Shown: positions 1-8,329 of the stretch, in pieces
Layout: each line of letters opens with the position of its first letter
Position numbering within the stretch: position 1 is the stretch's first letter
Assembly: GCA_963752595.1 (NCBI GenBank)
Contig: CAVVYZ010000002.1
Location: forward strand, 224,001 to 288,000
Source: an uncultured delta proteobacterium
GTDB lineage: Bacteria; Desulfobacterota; Desulfomonilia; UBA1062
DNA length: 64,000 bases
Direction of reading: 5' to 3'
Program-made: the position numbers and the translations under genes
The notes under the pieces: model-generated
Told to the model about the DNA's origin: nothing
Database searches by the model: none
The model's input: the letters and a program-made list of their open reading frames with translations, nothing else

Positions 1-98
1 ATGATCTCTCCATTGCTGCTGAGGACGCACACATACATTTTCTTTGTGTGCAGATCGATTCCGCAGTAATATTTGTGCTGTTTGGTGTAGAATCTCAT
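1..98 (-). CDS. IS110-family (DEDD) transposase, N-terminal part, runs off the window
   Basis: Reverse complement of 98..1 reads MRFYTKQHKYYCGIDLHTKKMYVCVLSSNGEI (YCGIDLH = first catalytic Asp motif of IS110 RuvC-like domain); SD GGAGGAGG at 110..103; not in the ORF track because truncated. Confidence 0.85.
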   Translation of the reverse strand, partial: MRFYTKQHKYYCGIDLHTKKMYVCVLSSNGEI

Positions 99-177
99 TT
101 GGCCTCCTCCTTTGGTTGGTTTTTTGTTGTTGGCGCTTCAAATATACCACCCATTCGAGGAGGCCTTACATAGTATC
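1..177 (-). mobile_element. End of an IS110/IS1111-type element inserted in an attC site
   Basis: Transposase start plus ~80 bp non-coding end; ...CATAGTATC abuts AATGGCATGCAGCGG (attC left arm) where RYYYAAC should be; exact boundary uncertain by a few bp. Confidence 0.7.
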
Positions 178-224
178 AATGGCATGCAGCGGACGCGCTG
201 CCGCGCGCCGCTGATGCCTAGCGT
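178..224 (+). other. attC site 1 (interrupted; right core completed at 2855-2859)
   Basis: AATGGCATGCAGCGGACGCGCTGCCGCGCGCCGCTGATGCCTAGCGT: GGCAT(G)CAGCGG/CCGCTGATGCC stem with one extra base; removing 225-2854 restores GTTATGC. Confidence 0.85.
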
Positions 225-875
225 GTGTGCCGGGCATGGCACAGAGCTAGCGAGGTGAAAGTCCTCGCGCCAGGTATAAACGGAGCCGAAGGCTAGGAGA
301 AGGGCAAGGGCGTCATCGCGAGGTGGGGTCTGGAGGAAGTCCAATCCAAAAGCTGCGGGGCGACGAACAGGAACCGGATATGAGGTGTGACGTACCCGGG
401 ACGAGTCGGCACGTGACGACGAAGTCCTCCATCCGTGAGTTGTGTACGTTTTATAAATCCGGCGCTTATGCGCGAGAAAGCTCTGTGTCTTACCCCGGGA
501 GATCTGTATGGTGTCCTTCACAGGTATGGCTGAAATATTGTGGCACCGCCTTAGAAACCAGGCGGCAAACAGAGAAAACAGATCTCAGCCTGAAGCCGGA
601 AGGACTAGAGTTCTTGAGAGGGAGCTCTGACCGCCATGCAGAAGTCAGCAGAGGGCATAGTAGGTGGAAGTATCACTGAAGGCCCGAACGGTTGAGAGGG
701 ATAGTGATCTGATAGGGGAGCGCTCATTAAGCCGGCACATAGTGTGGCCGCTTGCTAGAGATGGCAAGCAATTGAGAACTGGTCATGTCAGATGAAACGC
801 CCGGCTGCCTCGTTGTAGGCAGAGTAATCAGCCGAACCGCCGTGTACGTGACCCGTACGCACGGTGGTGTGGGAG

Positions 876-2821
876 TTGCGCCTTGAAGCGCATGGAATAC
901 AGTGACCTGGGATGGCCACCCTGGTAAAGCCTAGCCAGCAGCCAGGTACCGAGTCTTGCGTGGGGTGCGGTAACAATCTTCACGAAGCGTAGACAGGAAG
1001 GTGGCAGGCCGGAACCGAAAGATGAAGAGGAAAATTAGCCCCGAAATCGAACGTGTGCGGAGCAGTCGACCCTGTCTCTCAATGGGGAAGACGGAAATGT
1101 CATATTCGTTAGAAGGGCGAGAATATGAGATTGCTTCCGGGGTTCGTACCTACGGCATGTCATCAAGGGATTCCATGTGAACAAGGGAGATCCGGCGAGC
1201 TCAGGCGGAGCCTGTAGGAGCAAACAAGCCATCAAAGCGAGGATGCTCCGATGGTTCGTCGGAAGTCGGACTGGCTGATAGTACTTTGAGGCAGGGAGAG
1301 CCTACCACATGGGGAAGCGGCTAGCAGGATTTGAGCTCTTCTAAGGGAACATGAGCTCCATACAAAGGGAGGATACGAGCCTTCATGCAAAGGAGGGAGT
1401 AACTCAGTCATGGGAACGGGATTAGAAGGGATAGCAACGAAAGCTCGGAGTGAAACAAAGCTCAAGTTCACGTCACTATGCCATCATGTGACGCGGGAAC
1501 TGATCTGGGAGGGCCTGTGCAACATACCTTACCAGTCAGCGCCGGGAGCGGATGGCATCAGCGTGGAAGAGGCGAAGAGGACATTCAATGAATGGATAGA
1601 TGAGATGCACACGTCCATTCACCGGAAAGCATACCATGCACCACCAGTAAGGCGAGTATGGATACCTAAGCCGGGGAAAGCTGCCAAGCGACCGATAGGA
1701 GTCCCTTGCATAGCCGACAGAGCACTTCAGAGGAGTGTATCAGTGATTCTGTCGAGCATTTATGAGCAGGACTTTCTGCCGTGTTCGTTTGGAGGCCGAC
1801 CGAAGCTGAGCGCCCATCATGCCCTAGCAACATTCAACGAGATTGTAGTGGGCAAGAAGGTGGAATGGGTATTTGAAGCGGATCTAAAGAACTTCTTCGG
1901 CAGTTTGGACCATGGATGGATAGAACGCTTTGTGGAGCACCGAGTCGGAGACCCGAGGATAATGAGCTTGGTTAAGCGATGGCTAAAGGCAGGTGTTCTG
2001 GAAAATGGAGAGGTTAAACCGGTAGATGTGGGGACTCCTCAAGGGGGATCCATCAGTGTGCTGTTAAGTAATCTATATCTCCACTACGCTTTGGATCTAT
2101 GGTTCGAAAGGATTATAAAGCCAAATTTAAAAGGAGAAGCTTACTTGATAAGGTACATAGACGACTTTGTGGTATGCTTCCAATATCGCTCGGATGCAAT
2201 CTTCTTTCAGGATGCGCTGGTAAAGAGACTTGAGAAATTCAGCTTGGAACTAGAGCCTGAAAAGACCCGTTTGGTGGAATTTGGGCGCTTTGCTTCGGAG
2301 AATTCAGAAAAGCGTGGAAAGAGACTGGAGACGGTTTTCTTTCTAGGATTTACCCACTACTGCTCTCGCAACAAGAAGGGCAATTTCATGGTGGGGCGCA
2401 AGACTGAGAAGGCTCGATTCCGACGGAGCATATGCAAATTGCAAACACTGATGCAGGAGATCAGGCATCATTCCCTGAGAGGATCAAGTCCTGAAAATCA
2501 ACCAAGTACTTACGAGGCCACTATGCTTACTATGGTAGTAGGAGGGAACTTTAAATCGTTGTACATGATTTATCATTACGCCGAAAGATACTGGCATAAG
2601 ATGCTTAGTAGTCGGAGCCAAAAGAGCTACATTGCCTGGGAAAGATTCAAATTCCTCAAGCAGGTGTTTCCGTTACAGCGGCCAAAGCTTTCCGTCACTT
2701 ATAGGAGGATGAAAGCGTTCGCTGTGCTGTGAATCAAATTCTGAAGAGCGTAGTGCGGGAAATCTGCACGCTACGTTCTGTGGGGGTTGGGGCTGCCAAT
2801 TGGCAGCTCCTTCTACCCGGC
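876..2821 (+). mobile_element. RT-encoding group II intron (IIB-like) nested in the outer intron (twintron)
   Basis: Starts TTGCG; Id3 stem-loop GTCGACCCTGT-CTCTCA-ATGGGGAAGAC; DV GAAGAGCGTAGTGCGGGAAATCTGCACGCTACGTTCTG at 2743-2780; DVI ending CTACCCGGC; removal restores outer DVI GGGAG|GAGGGGTGTCGTGAGGCGCCCCCCTATCCCGAT. Confidence 0.88.
1410..2732 (+). CDS. ltrA: Group II intron reverse transcriptase/maturase, no endonuclease domain
   Basis: APGADG, RRVWIPKPGK..RPIGVP, GTPQGG, RYIDDF, FLGF motifs; domain X garbled at ~2475-2545 by three compensating +1 indels (read-through QVLKINQVLRGHYAYYG). Confidence 0.95.
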   Translation: MGTGLEGIATKARSETKLKFTSLCHHVTRELIWEGLCNIPYQSAPGADGISVEEAKRTFNEWIDEMHTSIHRKAYHAPPVRRVWIPKPGKAAKRPIGVPCIADRALQRSVSVILSSIYEQDFLPCSFGGRPKLSAHHALATFNEIVVGKKVEWVFEADLKNFFGSLDHGWIERFVEHRVGDPRIMSLVKRWLKAGVLENGEVKPVDVGTPQGGSISVLLSNLYLHYALDLWFERIIKPNLKGEAYLIRYIDDFVVCFQYRSDAIFFQDALVKRLEKFSLELEPEKTRLVEFGRFASENSEKRGKRLETVFFLGFTHYCSRNKKGNFMVGRKTEKARFRRSICKLQTLMQEIRHHSLRGSSPENQPSTYEATMLTMVVGGNFKSLYMIYHYAERYWHKMLSSRSQKSYIAWERFKFLKQVFPLQRPKLSVTYRRMKAFAVL

Positions 2822-2877
2822 GAGGGGTGTCGTGAGGCGCCCCCCTATCCCGATTATGCATAGGAACTGGTTCAAAT

Positions 2878-3590
2878 ATGAGTGAACTCACTGACCATCA
2901 GCAGCAATACGTACAATTTCTTCGTGCGGATATTGAGTCAATAAAAAGGGAGATCGCACGTAGGGCGAATCTTCAGAGGGTTGCGCTTGCTACTTATATT
3001 GTTGTTATTGCATTTGTAGGAAAGGGTGTATCATTGCAAGAAATAACAGGCTCCATTGCTTGTCGGCTTTTGGGTAATTGGGTCATTATGCGTTTCAGTA
3101 CTATACTCGTGAAGGTCTAGAGATAGGCAGGCTTGCTTCTATTGTTCGAGAAAGGATAGCACCAATTGCCAGTAAGATATTGGATGTCCACCAGAGAGAT
3201 CTCTTCCCTTCAGAAACAAATAATGCATATCAAGAAAAAGACAGAATATACCATTCTCTATGATCATTGTTTCAATGGATATTATTTCTTTTTTTCTCCC
3301 AGCTGGCAATAAACTTTGTTATTAACTATACTGAGGATTGGTCCAGGCGTACAAAAAGTTCTGGATTTTTGCACAAGAGGTCTATTTACATGTAGAGTAA
3401 TCTCAGTGGCAATGCATGGTCGAGACTGATGGAGAATGGAGAAGGATTGGCAACTCATTAATTCCTCGTTGGGTTTGCGTTTTAATCGGTGTTTTAATAA
3501 TAGTTGTTGGCTTGAAAATGTTTTGTACGTTAAAACTTACCTTATAATCAAGTATTATTGAGCGTTTTCTCATTAAATGAATAAACTACC
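2878..3590 (+). CDS. Gene cassette: hypothetical membrane protein, frameshifted (ORFs 2878-3120, 3078-3263 and continuation); end approximate
   Basis: AT-rich ORF pieces starting ~20 bp after attC1 core and followed by attC2; hydrophobic segments. Confidence 0.5.
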
Positions 3591-3620
3591 CGCGGCATGT
3601 ATTTTATCAGAGCAAACAAA

Positions 3621-3677
3621 ATCCAACCAGCCACTCCAGCCGACGGCCTATAGCCGCGGCTGACCGGCACGTTGAGG
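3621..3677 (+). other. attC site 2
   Basis: ATCCAAC-CAGCCACTCCAGCCGACGGCCTATAGCCGCGGCTGACCGGCAC-GTTGAGG: AAC/GTT cores and CAGCCG/CGGCTG stem. Confidence 0.8.
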
Positions 3678-3714
3678 CCATTGATTCATATCATTGCAAA
3701 AAATAGGAGGCATT

Positions 3715-4170
3715 ATGAATAAGTTACCTACCGAACAGACAACATCTCGACAGCTAATACGCCTTGGCATACTTCTGTTTTTTCTAGGGCTTCTCTCCGG
3801 CCTGGTCGTGCCAATGCTGTCCAACCCTCGCATGGGTCTTTCAAGCCATCTCGAAGGTGTGATGAATGGCTCCTTTCTGGTCATTCTGGGCCTGATATGG
3901 TCCAAGCTTCGATTGTCTCGAATGACCATGATAACCACGTTCCGGCTGGCCATCTATGGTGCCTATGTCAATTGGGCCACCACCTTAGCCGGGGCGGCAT
4001 GGGGGGCCGGTAATTCCATGATGCCTATCGCAGGCATGGGCCATAGGGGTTCGCCCCTCCAAGAGGGGATCATCAACTTTGGCCTGGTGTCATTCGCCAT
4101 TGCCATTCTCCTCACGTGCGTCATTGTCTTGTGGGGTCTCCGAGGTGCAGACGAGCCCAAGTCTACGTGA
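3715..4170 (+). CDS. Four-helix membrane protein, styrene-oxide isomerase (StyC)-like
   Basis: NPRMGLSSHLEGVMNG motif with conserved His; 4 hydrophobic helices; SD AGGAGG. Confidence 0.55.
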   Translation: MNKLPTEQTTSRQLIRLGILLFFLGLLSGLVVPMLSNPRMGLSSHLEGVMNGSFLVILGLIWSKLRLSRMTMITTFRLAIYGAYVNWATTLAGAAWGAGNSMMPIAGMGHRGSPLQEGIINFGLVSFAIAILLTCVIVLWGLRGADEPKST

Positions 4171-4213
4171 CCCCCCGAACCAATGAACCCGGCGGAATCA
4201 AAGGAGTTGCCCT

Positions 4214-4831
4214 ATGAAACGTTGTGAATGGGCTAATAGGAGCGAGTTGGAACAGTCTTATCACGATAAGGAATGGGGCACAGCAATCCATGACGACAGA
4301 AGCCTGTTCGAGTTTCTGGTGTTGGAAGGCGCGCAAGCCGGGCTGAGCTGGTCCACTATCCTTAAAAAGCGGGAAGGTTACAGAAAAGCATTCGACAATT
4401 TCGATGCCGGGAAAATCTCCCGATACTCCGAGCATGACGTCTCCATATTGCTGGCTAATCCGGAGATCATAAGAAACAGGCTCAAAATCAACGCGACCAT
4501 CACTAACGCCAGAGCGTTCTTGCAGGTGCAGGAACAATTCGGAAGCTTTGACCGTTACGTCTGGCAATTCGTTAACGGCAGAACTATCCAGAATTCATGG
4601 GAGAGGATTACTGATATTCCTTCCAGCACTCCTGAGTCCGGAGCCTTGAGCAAAGATCTGCAGAAAAGAGGGTTCAAGTTCGTTGGGACAACAATCTGTT
4701 ACGCATTCATGCAGGCCGTCGGCATGGTAAACGATCATGTCGCAGGTTGTTTCAGATACGAAGAACTCAAAAATAAGGACGAGCATAACCGGGCGGCGCA
4801 CCGAATCGCCGGGAAACCCGGCTCCCGGTGA
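4214..4831 (+). CDS. tag: DNA-3-methyladenine glycosylase I
   Basis: RCEWA, YHDKEWG, LEGAQAGLSW, IIRNRLKI, GFKFVG, MQAVGMVNDH. Confidence 0.96.
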   Translation: MKRCEWANRSELEQSYHDKEWGTAIHDDRSLFEFLVLEGAQAGLSWSTILKKREGYRKAFDNFDAGKISRYSEHDVSILLANPEIIRNRLKINATITNARAFLQVQEQFGSFDRYVWQFVNGRTIQNSWERITDIPSSTPESGALSKDLQKRGFKFVGTTICYAFMQAVGMVNDHVAGCFRYEELKNKDEHNRAAHRIAGKPGSR

Positions 4832-4845
4832 CCTTTGTGTCGGCG
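4783..4845 (+). other. Degenerate attC site 3
   Basis: GCATAAC...GCACCGAATCGCCGGGAAACCCGGCTCCCGGTGACC...GTCGGCG; right core GTT mutated to GTC; overlaps the tag 3' end. Confidence 0.65.
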
Positions 4846-4861
4846 ATTTTGGATATCTGAC

Positions 4862-5491
4862 ATGGAAAAATATCGAATTTACTGCTCCGGCCCACTGTTC
4901 TGCGCAGAAGAAATCGGCGGCATGAGTGCAATTGCCAAAGTGCTGGAAGATGCAGGCTTTCAAACATTCTTACCGCATCGTGACGGGATGGAAGCGTATG
5001 TCTTGCGTTTCTCAAACTCATCTTTTCCATCAACCGTTTCAGGGATACGCACACGCATTGATTACGCTATATTCTCCCTGGATGCATACGAGTTGATCGA
5101 AAGATGCAGCGCTGTAGTATGCAACCTGAACGGTCGTGTTCCCGACGAAGGAATGATTGTTGAAGCAACCCTTGCATATGCAGCCGGTAAGCCCCTCGTT
5201 TTTTTCAAAGATGATCTCAGGGCTCCTTTCGGCGGATATGACAATTCAATGCTGACGAGTCTGGTGCGCGGAAAAATTGTCAAAAGACTGAAGGAATTGC
5301 CTTCTGCACTCGAATATGAATTATCTCGGAAAACAGATTCAATACCCCTGTCGAACGGTTTAGAAAAAGCAATTTCATATGGGAAACGTATTTCATCGGT
5401 ATTGGAAAGCCTGCCGGAAAAGATGTTTAAAAAAAGGTGGTCGGACGAAATCCTCAGCCAGGTTATAGAAGAGGCACTCAAGGAGAAATGA
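4862..5491 (+). CDS. Nucleoside 2-deoxyribosyltransferase / Rcl-like N-glycosidase family protein
   Basis: IYCSGPLF, FLPHRDG, PDEGMIVEATLAYAAGKP pattern. Confidence 0.8.
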   Translation: MEKYRIYCSGPLFCAEEIGGMSAIAKVLEDAGFQTFLPHRDGMEAYVLRFSNSSFPSTVSGIRTRIDYAIFSLDAYELIERCSAVVCNLNGRVPDEGMIVEATLAYAAGKPLVFFKDDLRAPFGGYDNSMLTSLVRGKIVKRLKELPSALEYELSRKTDSIPLSNGLEKAISYGKRISSVLESLPEKMFKKRWSDEILSQVIEEALKEK

Positions 5492-5509
5492 TCTTCGCTG
5501 GCCCCTCTC

Positions 5510-5554
5510 ATCCACCGGAAGGCTTTCAGCCGCCGGTGATCTCAGTCGTTGACC
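5510..5554 (+). other. attC remnant 4 (left core lost)
   Basis: TCCACCGGAAGGCTTTCAGCCGCCGGTGATCTCAGTC-GTTGACC: CACCGG/CCGGTG stem and GTT core. Confidence 0.6.
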
Positions 5555-7476: not shown

Positions 7477-8069
7477 ATGGAAACCCTTGAAGAGAAGATA
7501 GCCCGCGTGCTGAAAGAGGAAGTGGCAGTTGTGCCGTACGATCCCCGCTGGCCGGAGATGTTTGAACAGGAGCGGCTTCATCTGCTGTCCTGCCTGCCCG
7601 CCGACCTGGTCACGAGAATCGAGCATTTCGGCAGCACCGCTGTTCCCGGCCTCCCGGCCAAACCCATTGTGGACATTCTGGTCGAGGTGGCGAGCCTTGA
7701 CGGGACGAGGCAGAGAATTGCGCCCATTCTTGAAGCGCAAGGGTATGACTACTTCTGGAGGCCATCAGGGGAGATGATACGCCGCCGTTCTATGCCTGGT
7801 TTATCAAGCGTGACGAGTATGGAAACAGAACGCATCACATCCACATGGTTGAGCCCTGGTTCGAGCACTGGGACAGACTTCTCTTTCGGGACTACCTCAT
7901 CGAGCATCCAGCCGTTGCCCGGGAATACGGCAATCTCAAAATCAGGCTCGCTGGTGCGCACCAAAATGACCGCGTGGCCTACACGAAAGCTAAGAGTGAC
8001 TTTATCAGCCGGGTTACCGGGAAGGCTGAATTCTGCGATCAAAGGGTTTCCGGAAGGAGACGGCATTGA
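7477..8069 (+). CDS. GrpB/UPF0157 nucleotidyltransferase-fold protein (frameshift ~7765)
   Basis: VVPYDPRW, IEHFGSTAVPGLPAKPIVDI; second frame HHIHMVE..LLFRDYL..EYGNLK..YTKAK. Confidence 0.85.
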
Positions 8070-8119
8070 GATTCCGCTGGATGTTGCAGACCCGGACTCG
8101 TGCTCTGCGTTTCAACTTT

Positions 8120-8329
8120 CCGCTGATCGTGCCTTGCCGCCGAGCTATCCGTTCGGATGGGCATCTCGGCGGCTTTCAGGGTGGTCTTGAAATGAAGCGG
8201 GTTTTACTCGAAAAGGAGGGGATCCGGTTCGACGGTTCGGGGAGGGTAGTCTGTGCGCAGTTTCATTATGAGGGGATAATGTCGGACAAAGGCATACCGG
8301 ATGAATTCATCCAGCCTGACCATCGATGA
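8120..8329 (+). pseudogene. C-terminal fragment of an MGMT/Ogt-like alkyltransferase
   Basis: PLIVPCRRAIRSDGHLGGFQGGLEMKRVLLEKEG resembles the PCHRV...LGG..K..LL..EG C-terminus; N-terminus absent, PCHR changed to PCRR. Confidence 0.7.

What the first reader, a model, noticed from the sequence alone, without database searches (positions are those of the whole stretch)
178..2859. One attC site colonised by three stacked mobile elements (IS110, ORF-less IIC intron, nested RT intron)
Seen: the attC left core is displaced by an IS110 end, its right core GT|T is split by a IIC intron, and that intron is split by a second intron. Removing the two introns rebuilds the outer DVI and then GTTATGC precisely. 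Inference: at DNA level the site is dead for IntI, so the downstream cassette is locked in place. At RNA level both introns are sense to the cassettes, so ordered splicing (inner, then outer) could restore the transcript and gate downstream cassette expression.
Basis: partly seen in the sequence, partly recalled or inferred. Interest (0 to 1): 0.85.

Follow-up and report, generated by a model that had tools for sequence, protein, structure and literature searches.

The report
Intron parasite inside attC intron
One integron recombination site carries three separate mobile elements, and the innermost, a mobile intron whose relatives in many bacterial phyla sit at the same spot in the branch-point hairpin of other introns, likely lives as a parasite of introns rather than as part of a gene-control switch.

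Summary
The anatomy is exactly as described. An IS1111-type element splits the attC after R'' (window end 177). An ORF-less IIC intron (225-875 + 2822-2854) splits the core GT|T on the cassette strand. An RT intron (876-2821) splits that intron's domain VI. Each layer occurs without the others: IS alone at two attC sites of this genome, the outer intron without IS at another, uninterrupted outer relatives elsewhere. With 3 IS and 2 intron hits among 28 attC sites, an overlap has P about 0.2.

The striking part is the inner intron. It belongs to a clade spanning at least seven phyla that lands 8 nt after domain V of other group II introns (36 of 47 sites by a strict test; 0.45% at random). Its EBS1/EBS2 covary with that target. 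The attC-intron-plus-inner-intron pair recurs in other metagenome contigs, without the IS. I found this landing site in none of the papers I could read, but key surveys were not held. The scan noted it before on other DNA.

The gating idea has no support: the site is intergenic, neighbouring genes are broken, and no RNA run was available.

The parts
1..177 (-). Left end and start of the transposase gene (ATG at 98) of an IS1111-type (IS110 superfamily) element; the element continues upstream of the window to G000:C2:222480. Subterminal inverted repeat at 157-170, 7-nt terminal extension at 171-177.
   Evidence: Pfam DEDD_Tnp_IS110 and Transposase_20 on the 88%-identical intact copy in C20; this copy's transposase is frameshifted
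178..224 (+). Remaining attC: spacer 178-182, L'' 183-190, L' 210-216, spacer 217-222, first two bases (GT) of R'. The top strand still forms a hairpin ending 6 nt before the intron.
   Evidence: folds; attC profile hit E 2e-10 (this site was one of the seeds)
225..875 (+). Outer ORF-less group IIC intron, domains I-V and the first 5 nt of domain VI. EBS1 ACGT at 411-414, domain V at about 837-867.
   Evidence: Rfam RF02001 115 bits, RF01998 58.4 bits; RF00029 30.9 bits, below gathering; fold z -4.85; EBS1
876..2821 (+). Inner group II intron (1946 nt, TTGCG...GGC). EBS2 at 1048-1052, EBS1 at 1076-1081, domains V-VI at 2744-2821.
1410..2732 (+). RT/maturase ORF of the inner intron, 440 aa, no endonuclease domain detected. 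Three extra bases near 2479, 2512 and 2538 scramble about 19 residues of the thumb region while keeping the frame (assembly error or recent lesion).
2822..2854 (+). Rest of domain VI and 3' end of the outer intron
2855..2859 (+). Rest of the attC R' box (TATGC), start of the next cassette
2878..3677 (+). Downstream cassette: broken ORF (80 aa from ATG 2878, no Pfam match) and its attC at 3621-3677

Best explanation
The site holds three selfish elements that likely arrived independently, each by its own targeting rule, and the innermost one likely homes by RNA-DNA pairing into the domain V-VI end of other group II introns. (1) Shown: the IS1111-type element sits directly after R'' at all three complete copies in this genome; guidance by its non-coding RNA is inferred from the literature. 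(2) Shown: the IIC intron family has EBS1 ACG(U) and sits after ...CGT| of attC cores on the cassette strand; inferred: it uses the top-strand hairpin as its stem-loop, lost its ORF, and needed an RT in trans. (3) Shown: the inner intron's clade sits 8 nt after domain V, 5 nt into the basal stem of domain VI, in hosts of several intron types including itself, and its EBS1 (CUCUCA) and EBS2 (CGAAC) covary with the target. [quoted passage not shown] The inner must have come after the outer; the order of IS and outer cannot be told. The stack is decaying cargo in a degraded integron, not a switch.
For: Each layer alone: IS at two C20 attC sites without intron; outer intron 5' part at a C16 attC with intact R''; uninterrupted ORF-less outer relatives of 613, 590 and 448 nt. 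Overlap by chance P = 0.21 given 3 IS and 2 intron hits among 28 attC-like sites. Inner target: 36 of 47 located 5' ends (window + 46 loci from 31 genomes) pass a strict domain V test, against 105 of 23,500 random positions and 96 of 10,458 IBS1-like positions; 30 of 39 with both ends show a domain VI end downstream. Watson-Crick pairs EBS1 177 of 222 (permutation mean 141, sd 4.4) and EBS2 130 of 185 (116, sd 3.2), 0 of 5000 permutations reaching either, with clear compensatory cases. Inner copies within one genome are 98-100% identical while their hosts are often unrelated or 70-90% alike. RT clade SH-aLRT 99, stem 0.6, at least seven phyla (quick tree). Outer EBS1: 6 of 6 introns after CGT have ACG, 5 of 5 terminator-type do not. 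The two-intron stack in an attC recurs without IS in L173 and L194.
Against: Four of 47 sites are not in introns (L012, L035, L045, L049) and seven more fail the strict test (damaged, truncated or mismatched domain V; judged by eye). In the window EBS2 pairs at only 2 of 5 positions, as in other IIC hosts (L020 2, L041 1), so the pairing rule alone does not explain these sites. Rows are related, so the permutation test overstates. Ends were not located for 33 of the 79 loci (short contigs, or distant RTs of 43-49% identity), so the target of the outgroup is not established. No homing or splicing was observed. Some identical host-plus-inner pairs occur at several sites (L016/L017; L146/L171/L180), which joint movement would also give.
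Confidence: 0.78

Rival explanations
1. The inner intron finds its site mainly through the domain V hairpin (in single-stranded DNA or in the host intron's RNA) plus EBS1, as IIC introns do with terminators; EBS2 is secondary.
For: IIC hosts give only 1-2 of 5 EBS2 pairs, yet the IIC junction is common: 107 stretches in metagenomes, 52 of 56 unique junctions among the 80 analysed confirmed as this intron's 5' end (the pattern demanded the junction, so this shows recurrence only). Non-intron site L049 has a hairpin at the same distance and 1 of 5 EBS2 pairs. EBS2 is dispensable for splicing of class E/F introns in vitro (PMC3753933, passages).
Against: L012 and L035 have no domain V hairpin and pair at 4-5 of 5 EBS2 positions; EBS2 covaries with the target (GAAC/GTTC against GAUC/GATC); L170 has an EBS2 shifted towards the IIC sequence.
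Confidence: 0.15
2. The twintron moves as one unit: the ORF-less outer intron splices with the inner still inside domain VI and is copied by the inner RT.
For: Same host plus inner at different sites: L016/L017 (host 100% identical over 600 nt) and an ORF-less 611-nt IIC host after three different terminators (L146, L171, L180). No class C RT found in this assembly. Host splicing without removal of an inner intron is reported for plant mitochondrial twintrons (PMC7049729, passages).
Against: Identical inner copies sit in unrelated hosts; uninterrupted ORF-less outer relatives exist, one in two identical copies (G061); ORF-deleted inner copies sit in ORF-less hosts (L170, L173); short-read contigs across repeats are often chimeric (L146 against L193). 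For T. elongatus twintrons separate mobility was favoured (PMC2882425, passages).
Confidence: 0.08
3. The stack is a kept regulatory device: it fixes the downstream cassette in place and ordered splicing gates its expression.
For: Both introns are sense to the cassettes; sequential twintron splicing in a bacterium is documented (PMC4649490, passages); inner EBS1 pairs at 6 of 6 positions.
Against: Intergenic site; broken intI, upstream cassette, transposase and downstream ORF; a 1.7-kb antisense IS lies between any array promoter and the introns; three-layer stack seen once, its layers seen apart; promoter-like sites at chance level (5 against 4.6).
Confidence: 0.05
4. The arrangement at this locus is an assembly chimera.
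For: Frameshifts cluster in this region; no listed contig bridges all junctions; genome contamination 6.8%.
Against: The inner intron is single-copy in the assembly; both flanks belong to the same intron family and rebuild domain VI and GTT to the base; run X1 holds exact outer domain IV sequence (674-861) and a contig over the 5' junction; the same two-layer stack occurs in L173 and L194.
Confidence: 0.04

Closest known systems
Nested introns of Methanosarcina acetivorans (Dai and Zimmerly 2003; known here through the review PMC4424553, passages) and TeI3-in-TeI4 twintrons of Thermosynechococcus elongatus (PMC2882425, passages)
   Same: An intron homes site-specifically into another group II intron; inner copies near-identical, hosts diverged; intergenic; gives a lasting homing site.
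   Different: [quoted passage not shown] Here the target is the ribozyme's domain V-VI end, shared by unrelated hosts, opposite the branch point, and the habit marks a clade across at least seven phyla.
Top-strand group IIC intron of Enterobacter cloacae (Rodriguez-Martinez, Nordmann, Poirel 2012; paper not held; seen through one passage of PMC7923331, and recall)
   Same: IIC intron in the attC top strand, same sense as cassettes. The outer intron is 80% identical over 54% of its length to a plasmid intron at the aadA2-qacEdelta1 junction, at the same GT|T position.
   Different: The window copy has no ORF, has a 108-nt longer domain II, and is itself invaded. That the plasmid intron is the one described in 2012 is my inference.
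Group IIC-attC introns (S.ma.I2 type; PMC7923331 passages; PMC3001079 search listing only)
   Same: IIC ribozyme that targets attC sites.
   Different: They insert in the bottom strand at R'' (TTGT/T), opposite to the cassettes; the outer intron here does not.
IS1111-attC group (ISKpn4, ISPst6; PMC11187229 passages; Tetu and Holmes 2008 not held)
   Same: DEDD transposase, subterminal repeats with 7+3 extensions, long downstream non-coding region, fixed position at one end of attC.
   Different: Relationship to the named elements was not tested; this copy's transposase is frameshifted.
Trichodesmium twintron Tr.e.I7/I8 (PMC4649490, passages)
   Same: Two unrelated group II introns nested; inner-then-outer splicing.
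   Different: It interrupts a protein gene, the inner sits in domain I, and splicing was shown in vivo; here the site is intergenic and splicing is untested.

Membership tests
IS1111 family / IS1111-attC group | DEDD (IS110-type) transposase | tested here: met
   PF01548 and PF02371 on the intact C20 copy, 88% identical in DNA to the window copy, which is frameshifted
IS1111 family / IS1111-attC group | Subterminal inverted repeats of about 11-13 bp with 7-nt left and 3-nt right extensions | tested here: met
   13 of 14 matches, extensions 7 and 3; criterion from PMC11187229
IS1111 family / IS1111-attC group | Long non-coding region downstream of the transposase gene | tested here: met
   587 nt downstream against 78 upstream in the C20 copy
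IS1111 family / IS1111-attC group | Fixed insertion point at one end of attC | tested here: met
   3 of 3 complete copies follow the R'' AAC; the fourth copy (C1) lacks both tips and is not in an attC
IS1111 family / IS1111-attC group | Phylogenetic grouping with ISKpn4/ISPst6/ISPa21; RNA-guided targeting | not tested
   no reference sequences fetched
Group IIC intron (outer) | GUGYG...AY ends, short domain V with CGC triad | tested here: met
   CGC criterion from PMC7923331
Group IIC intron (outer) | Short EBS1-IBS1 and a stem-loop just upstream of the site | tested here: met
   EBS1 ACGT pairs 4 of 4 with GCGT; top-strand hairpin -20.0 kcal/mol. Absence of EBS2 not tested.
Group IIC intron (outer) | Class C intron-encoded protein | not testable with these tools
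   no ORF in this copy; RT-bearing relatives L119 and L135 exist but were not placed against named class C references
IIC-attC introns (S.ma.I2 type) | Insertion in attC bottom strand at R'', TTGT/T, opposite to cassettes | tested here: not met
   top strand, R' core, GCGT/T, same sense as cassettes
Top-strand attC-core IIC lineage (E. cloacae type) | Insertion at GT|T of the core, sense to cassettes, sequence related to the class 1 integron intron | tested here: met
   identity of the plasmid intron with the published one is inferred
Top-strand attC-core IIC lineage (E. cloacae type) | Own RT/maturase ORF | tested here: not met
   684 nt, no RT remnant: a non-autonomous derivative
Mobile En-minus group II intron with EBS1/EBS2 (inner) | RT/maturase in domain IV, no endonuclease domain, EBS1 and EBS2 | tested here: met
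   PF00078 only; TIGR04416 272 bits, under its cut-off of 300; EBS covariation
Mobile En-minus group II intron with EBS1/EBS2 (inner) | Consensus ends GUGYG...AY | tested here: not met
   UUGCG...GGC here; relatives mostly UUGCG...GGC/GGU/GGA: a clade trait
Bacterial class E | RT groups with named class E proteins | not tested
   resemblance is recalled only; the tree held no named class E reference
Twintron | One intron precisely nested in another; removal restores the host | tested here: met
Twintron | Sequential splicing in vivo | not testable with these tools
   no RNA holder listed

The most novel reading that the evidence does not exclude
The inner clade is a universal hyperparasite of group II introns that aims at a motif hosts cannot mutate away, and in ORF-less hosts such as this attC intron it turns helper: the outer intron splices with the inner still looped out of domain VI and the composite is copied into new attC sites by the inner RT.
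Probability: 0.08. Interest if true: 0.88.

Novelty: new variant of a known kind. Interest (0 to 1): 0.62.

Why it matters
A retroelement that targets the conserved catalytic end of its own class of ribozymes has a target in almost any genome that holds group II introns. It would act as a natural brake on them, since an invaded host cannot branch until the parasite leaves. It explains why many intron pairs are missed: two pipelines state that they drop or miss nested introns (PMC4028801; PMC8919778). It gives a ready test of whether inner-first splicing is obligatory when the insertion lies beside the branch point. For integrons, the locus shows attC sites as sinks on which unrelated parasites pile up and fuse cassettes. 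The three-layer stack itself is a striking specimen, not a new system.

Tried and rejected
Expression: no RNA holder listed; this says nothing either way. Reads: only Logan contigs of runs X1-X6, none spanning the stretch; small shares not used for habitat. Viral contigs: 0 matches to the junction pattern. RT for the outer intron in this genome: the only other RT (C7:55040-55816) lies directly before a cas1-like gene (name from recall of the sequence, no family search), so not taken as a maturase. RT remnant in the outer domain IV: none. Promoters and terminators: chance level. Self-avoidance by the +1 base: targets have G (31) or C (8) at +1, never T or A; the window's subclade has T at its own equivalent site, and self-nesting was seen only in copies with C (L048, L050, L063). 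I had no unbiased set of uninvaded hosts, so this stays a lead. The careful tree did not finish; the quick tree was used, with 13 duplicates and 11 broken or short rows left out. Literature: nine searches, six of them aimed at nested introns or this site, showed no description of a domain V-VI homing site. Simon 2008, Rodriguez-Martinez 2012 and Tetu 2008 were not held; Michel 2007, Toro 2002 and the intron database entries were not seen; no supplements were read. Any of these may already mention it.

Full report
1. What is there. The window is G000:C2:224001-288000 of an unnamed 4.1-Mb genome, 84% complete, 6.8% contaminated. Upstream of the window lie an internally deleted intI (only profile positions 1-55 and 124-149 of 315 match) and a frameshifted first cassette. 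Then comes the attC in question. Its R'' box is followed by a 1698-nt IS on the minus strand that ends at window 177. Positions 178-224 hold the rest of the site up to GT. An intron starts at 225, a second at 876, the second ends at 2821, the first at 2854, and TATGC completes R'. Rebuilt in a script, the attC is a canonical 59-mer and the outer intron is 684 nt. Rfam finds two domain I-IV models on the outer part and one plus domain V-VI on the inner.

2. The IS. It meets the IS1111 criteria given in PMC11187229 (passages): 13 of 14 matching subterminal repeat, 7+3 extensions, long downstream non-coding region, IS110-type Pfam domains. Two intact 88%-identical copies sit at the same point of two attC sites in the C20 array, with no intron; a fourth copy on C1 lacks its tips. 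IS1111 elements that target one end of attC are known (same paper). This layer is ordinary.

3. The outer intron. A search of 301 genomes of the phylum matched 67. Among the 29 loci from other genomes, 13 showed the 5' end: 11 follow ...CGT, most after an attC-like hairpin (judged by eye), and 2 follow terminators. EBS1 is ACG in 6 of 6 introns after CGT and different in 5 of 5 terminator-type introns where my pattern could read it. The best plasmid match (80% over 54% of the query) is an RT intron at the aadA2-qacEdelta1 junction at the same GT|T. PMC7923331 (passages) states that IIC-attC introns use the bottom strand and that one E. cloacae IIC intron uses the top strand; the original paper was not held. 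So the outer is a non-autonomous member of a rarely described but known kind. A 95%-identical 5' part sits in a C16 attC with intact R''; it breaks off before domain V, so it says nothing on the inner intron. No class C RT was found in the assembly.

4. The inner intron. Its RT has relatives in many genomes (579 stretches, best 80 kept as 79 loci). I located the 5' end in 46 loci from 31 genomes; 33 loci were left out (contig ends, no profile hit, or RTs of 43-49% identity). With the window, 36 of 47 sites follow a domain V hairpin with catalytic triad, nearly all ending 8 nt before the site, against 0.45% of random positions and 0.9% of IBS1-like positions. Of the 11 misses, 7 are damaged, truncated or mismatched domain V by eye and 4 are not introns. 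In 30 of 39 cases with both ends a domain VI end follows. Hosts include IIC introns (L020, L041), other types with different domain V-VI sequences, and the intron itself (L048, L050, L063). Two rhizobial plasmid loci show the same site. The loop CUCUCA (1076-1081) and the bulge CGAAC (1048-1052) covary with target positions -1 to -6 and -8 to -12: for example CGCUC with GAGCG, UCCCC with GGGGA, GAUC with GATC, and in the non-intron site L035 both change together. Over 37 unique combinations, Watson-Crick pairs are 177 of 222 and 130 of 185, above all 5000 permutations; relatedness inflates this. Within genomes, inner copies are 98-100% identical while hosts often differ, the argument that PMC2882425 (passages) used for separate insertion. 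The RTs form one clade with a long stem across at least seven phyla (quick tree). The window's RT has three extra bases that a near-identical intact protein (P0001) and contigs of runs X1 and X4 lack; with frameshifts in the neighbouring genes this points to local assembly error or decay, which I cannot tell apart.

5. Does the stack recur? A junction pattern (IIC domain V end + inner 5' end) hit 107 metagenome stretches; of the 80 analysed, 56 were unique and 52 were confirmed. L173 is a full replicate: attC, ORF-less outer 85% identical to ours over its 5' part, ORF-deleted inner, rest of domain VI. L194 is another, with a full-length inner. L174, L156/L197 and L170/L178 are partial cases. 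L173, L194 and L174 have an intact R'' and no IS. In G000, 3 of 28 attC-like sites carry the IS and 2 carry the outer intron; one overlap has P = 0.21. The three-layer stack needs no cooperation.

6. How it most likely works. Three target-specific parasites met on one site. The IS takes the R'' end and leaves the L''-L' hairpin; the IIC intron uses that hairpin and ACG-CGT pairing; the inner intron reads the end of domain V. Inner after outer is forced; IS against outer is open. In DNA the attC is dead (inferred), which fuses two cassettes rather than fixing one, since the next attC and an intact intI remain. In RNA the inner would have to leave first (inferred). Nothing points to regulation: no frame is restored, the flanking genes are broken, an antisense IS lies upstream, and promoter-like sites are at chance level. 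Against my reading: EBS2 pairs poorly in IIC hosts, including here, so structure or relaxed specificity plays a part; identical host-plus-inner pairs at several sites leave joint movement open; no read spans the whole locus.

7. Known or new. Twintrons and introns that home into introns are known (PMC4424553, PMC2882425, PMC4649490, PMC7049729; passages). A 2025 introduction listing specialised lineages names terminator-targeting IIC and start/stop-codon IIB1 introns only (PMC12584367, section 3). Passages of PMC5894124, PMC3753933, PMC7306698, PMC3552965, PMC3245105, PMC4028801 and PMC8919778 do not mention this target; PMC7306698 notes that other group II introns are the commonest neighbours of group II introns. 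The searches and the papers I could not see are listed under Tried and rejected. Earlier notes of this scan report the same landing site on other DNA and top-strand ORF-less attC introns; I had reached both readings before looking, and they are not independent proof. No look-alike of this inner sequence was indexed.

8. Verdict. Real feature; new variant of a known kind. The IS and outer layers are known types. The inner clade's target is the valuable part and is well supported by comparison, untested at the bench. Interest 0.62.

Noticed in passing
G000:C16:14331 downwards (L246, minus strand): The second copy of the outer intron breaks off in the domain III region and continues with about 300 nt that look like the 5' end of another group II intron (GTGCG start, hairpins); Rfam gave no hit for it. 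May be a second intron-targeting lineage, as in note e1-9754989.
   Followed up: partly
window 519-626: Optional 108-nt module in domain II of the outer intron: present in L119, L156, L170, absent in the C16 copy, L090, L135. A similar sequence follows domain V in some distant introns (L074, L076, L080).
   Followed up: no
L124, L125, L129: Outer-family introns shrunk to about 50-190 nt with both ends kept, still in attC cores: miniature remnants.
   Followed up: no
L159, L170, L173, L174, L191: ORF-deleted forms (654-725 nt) of the inner intron, at the same domain VI site.
   Followed up: partly
L013:4663-4664; L048, L050, L063: Head-to-tail tandem of the inner intron (L013) and self-nesting with repeated domain VI pieces, up to three layers.
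   Followed up: no
L042, L044, L045, L051: Inner introns 1.2-3 kb longer than usual between 5' end and RT, so themselves carrying insertions.
   Followed up: no
G000:C7:54000-55860: RT gene directly upstream of a cas1-like gene (name from recall).
   Followed up: no
G000:C17:30172-30284: Short 5' fragment of a terminator-type IIC intron after a T-rich hairpin.
   Followed up: no
window 3621-5520 and 7477-8190: Further cassette-like genes (methyladenine glycosylase, nucleoside deoxyribosyltransferase) with degenerate attC-like sites near 4784-4850 (by eye) and 5509; the GrpB-family gene appears split by a frameshift.
   Followed up: no
G000 contigs C2, C5, C13, C16, C20, C26: 28 attC-like sites on six contigs but one intact intI (C20:132916-133845).
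   Followed up: partly
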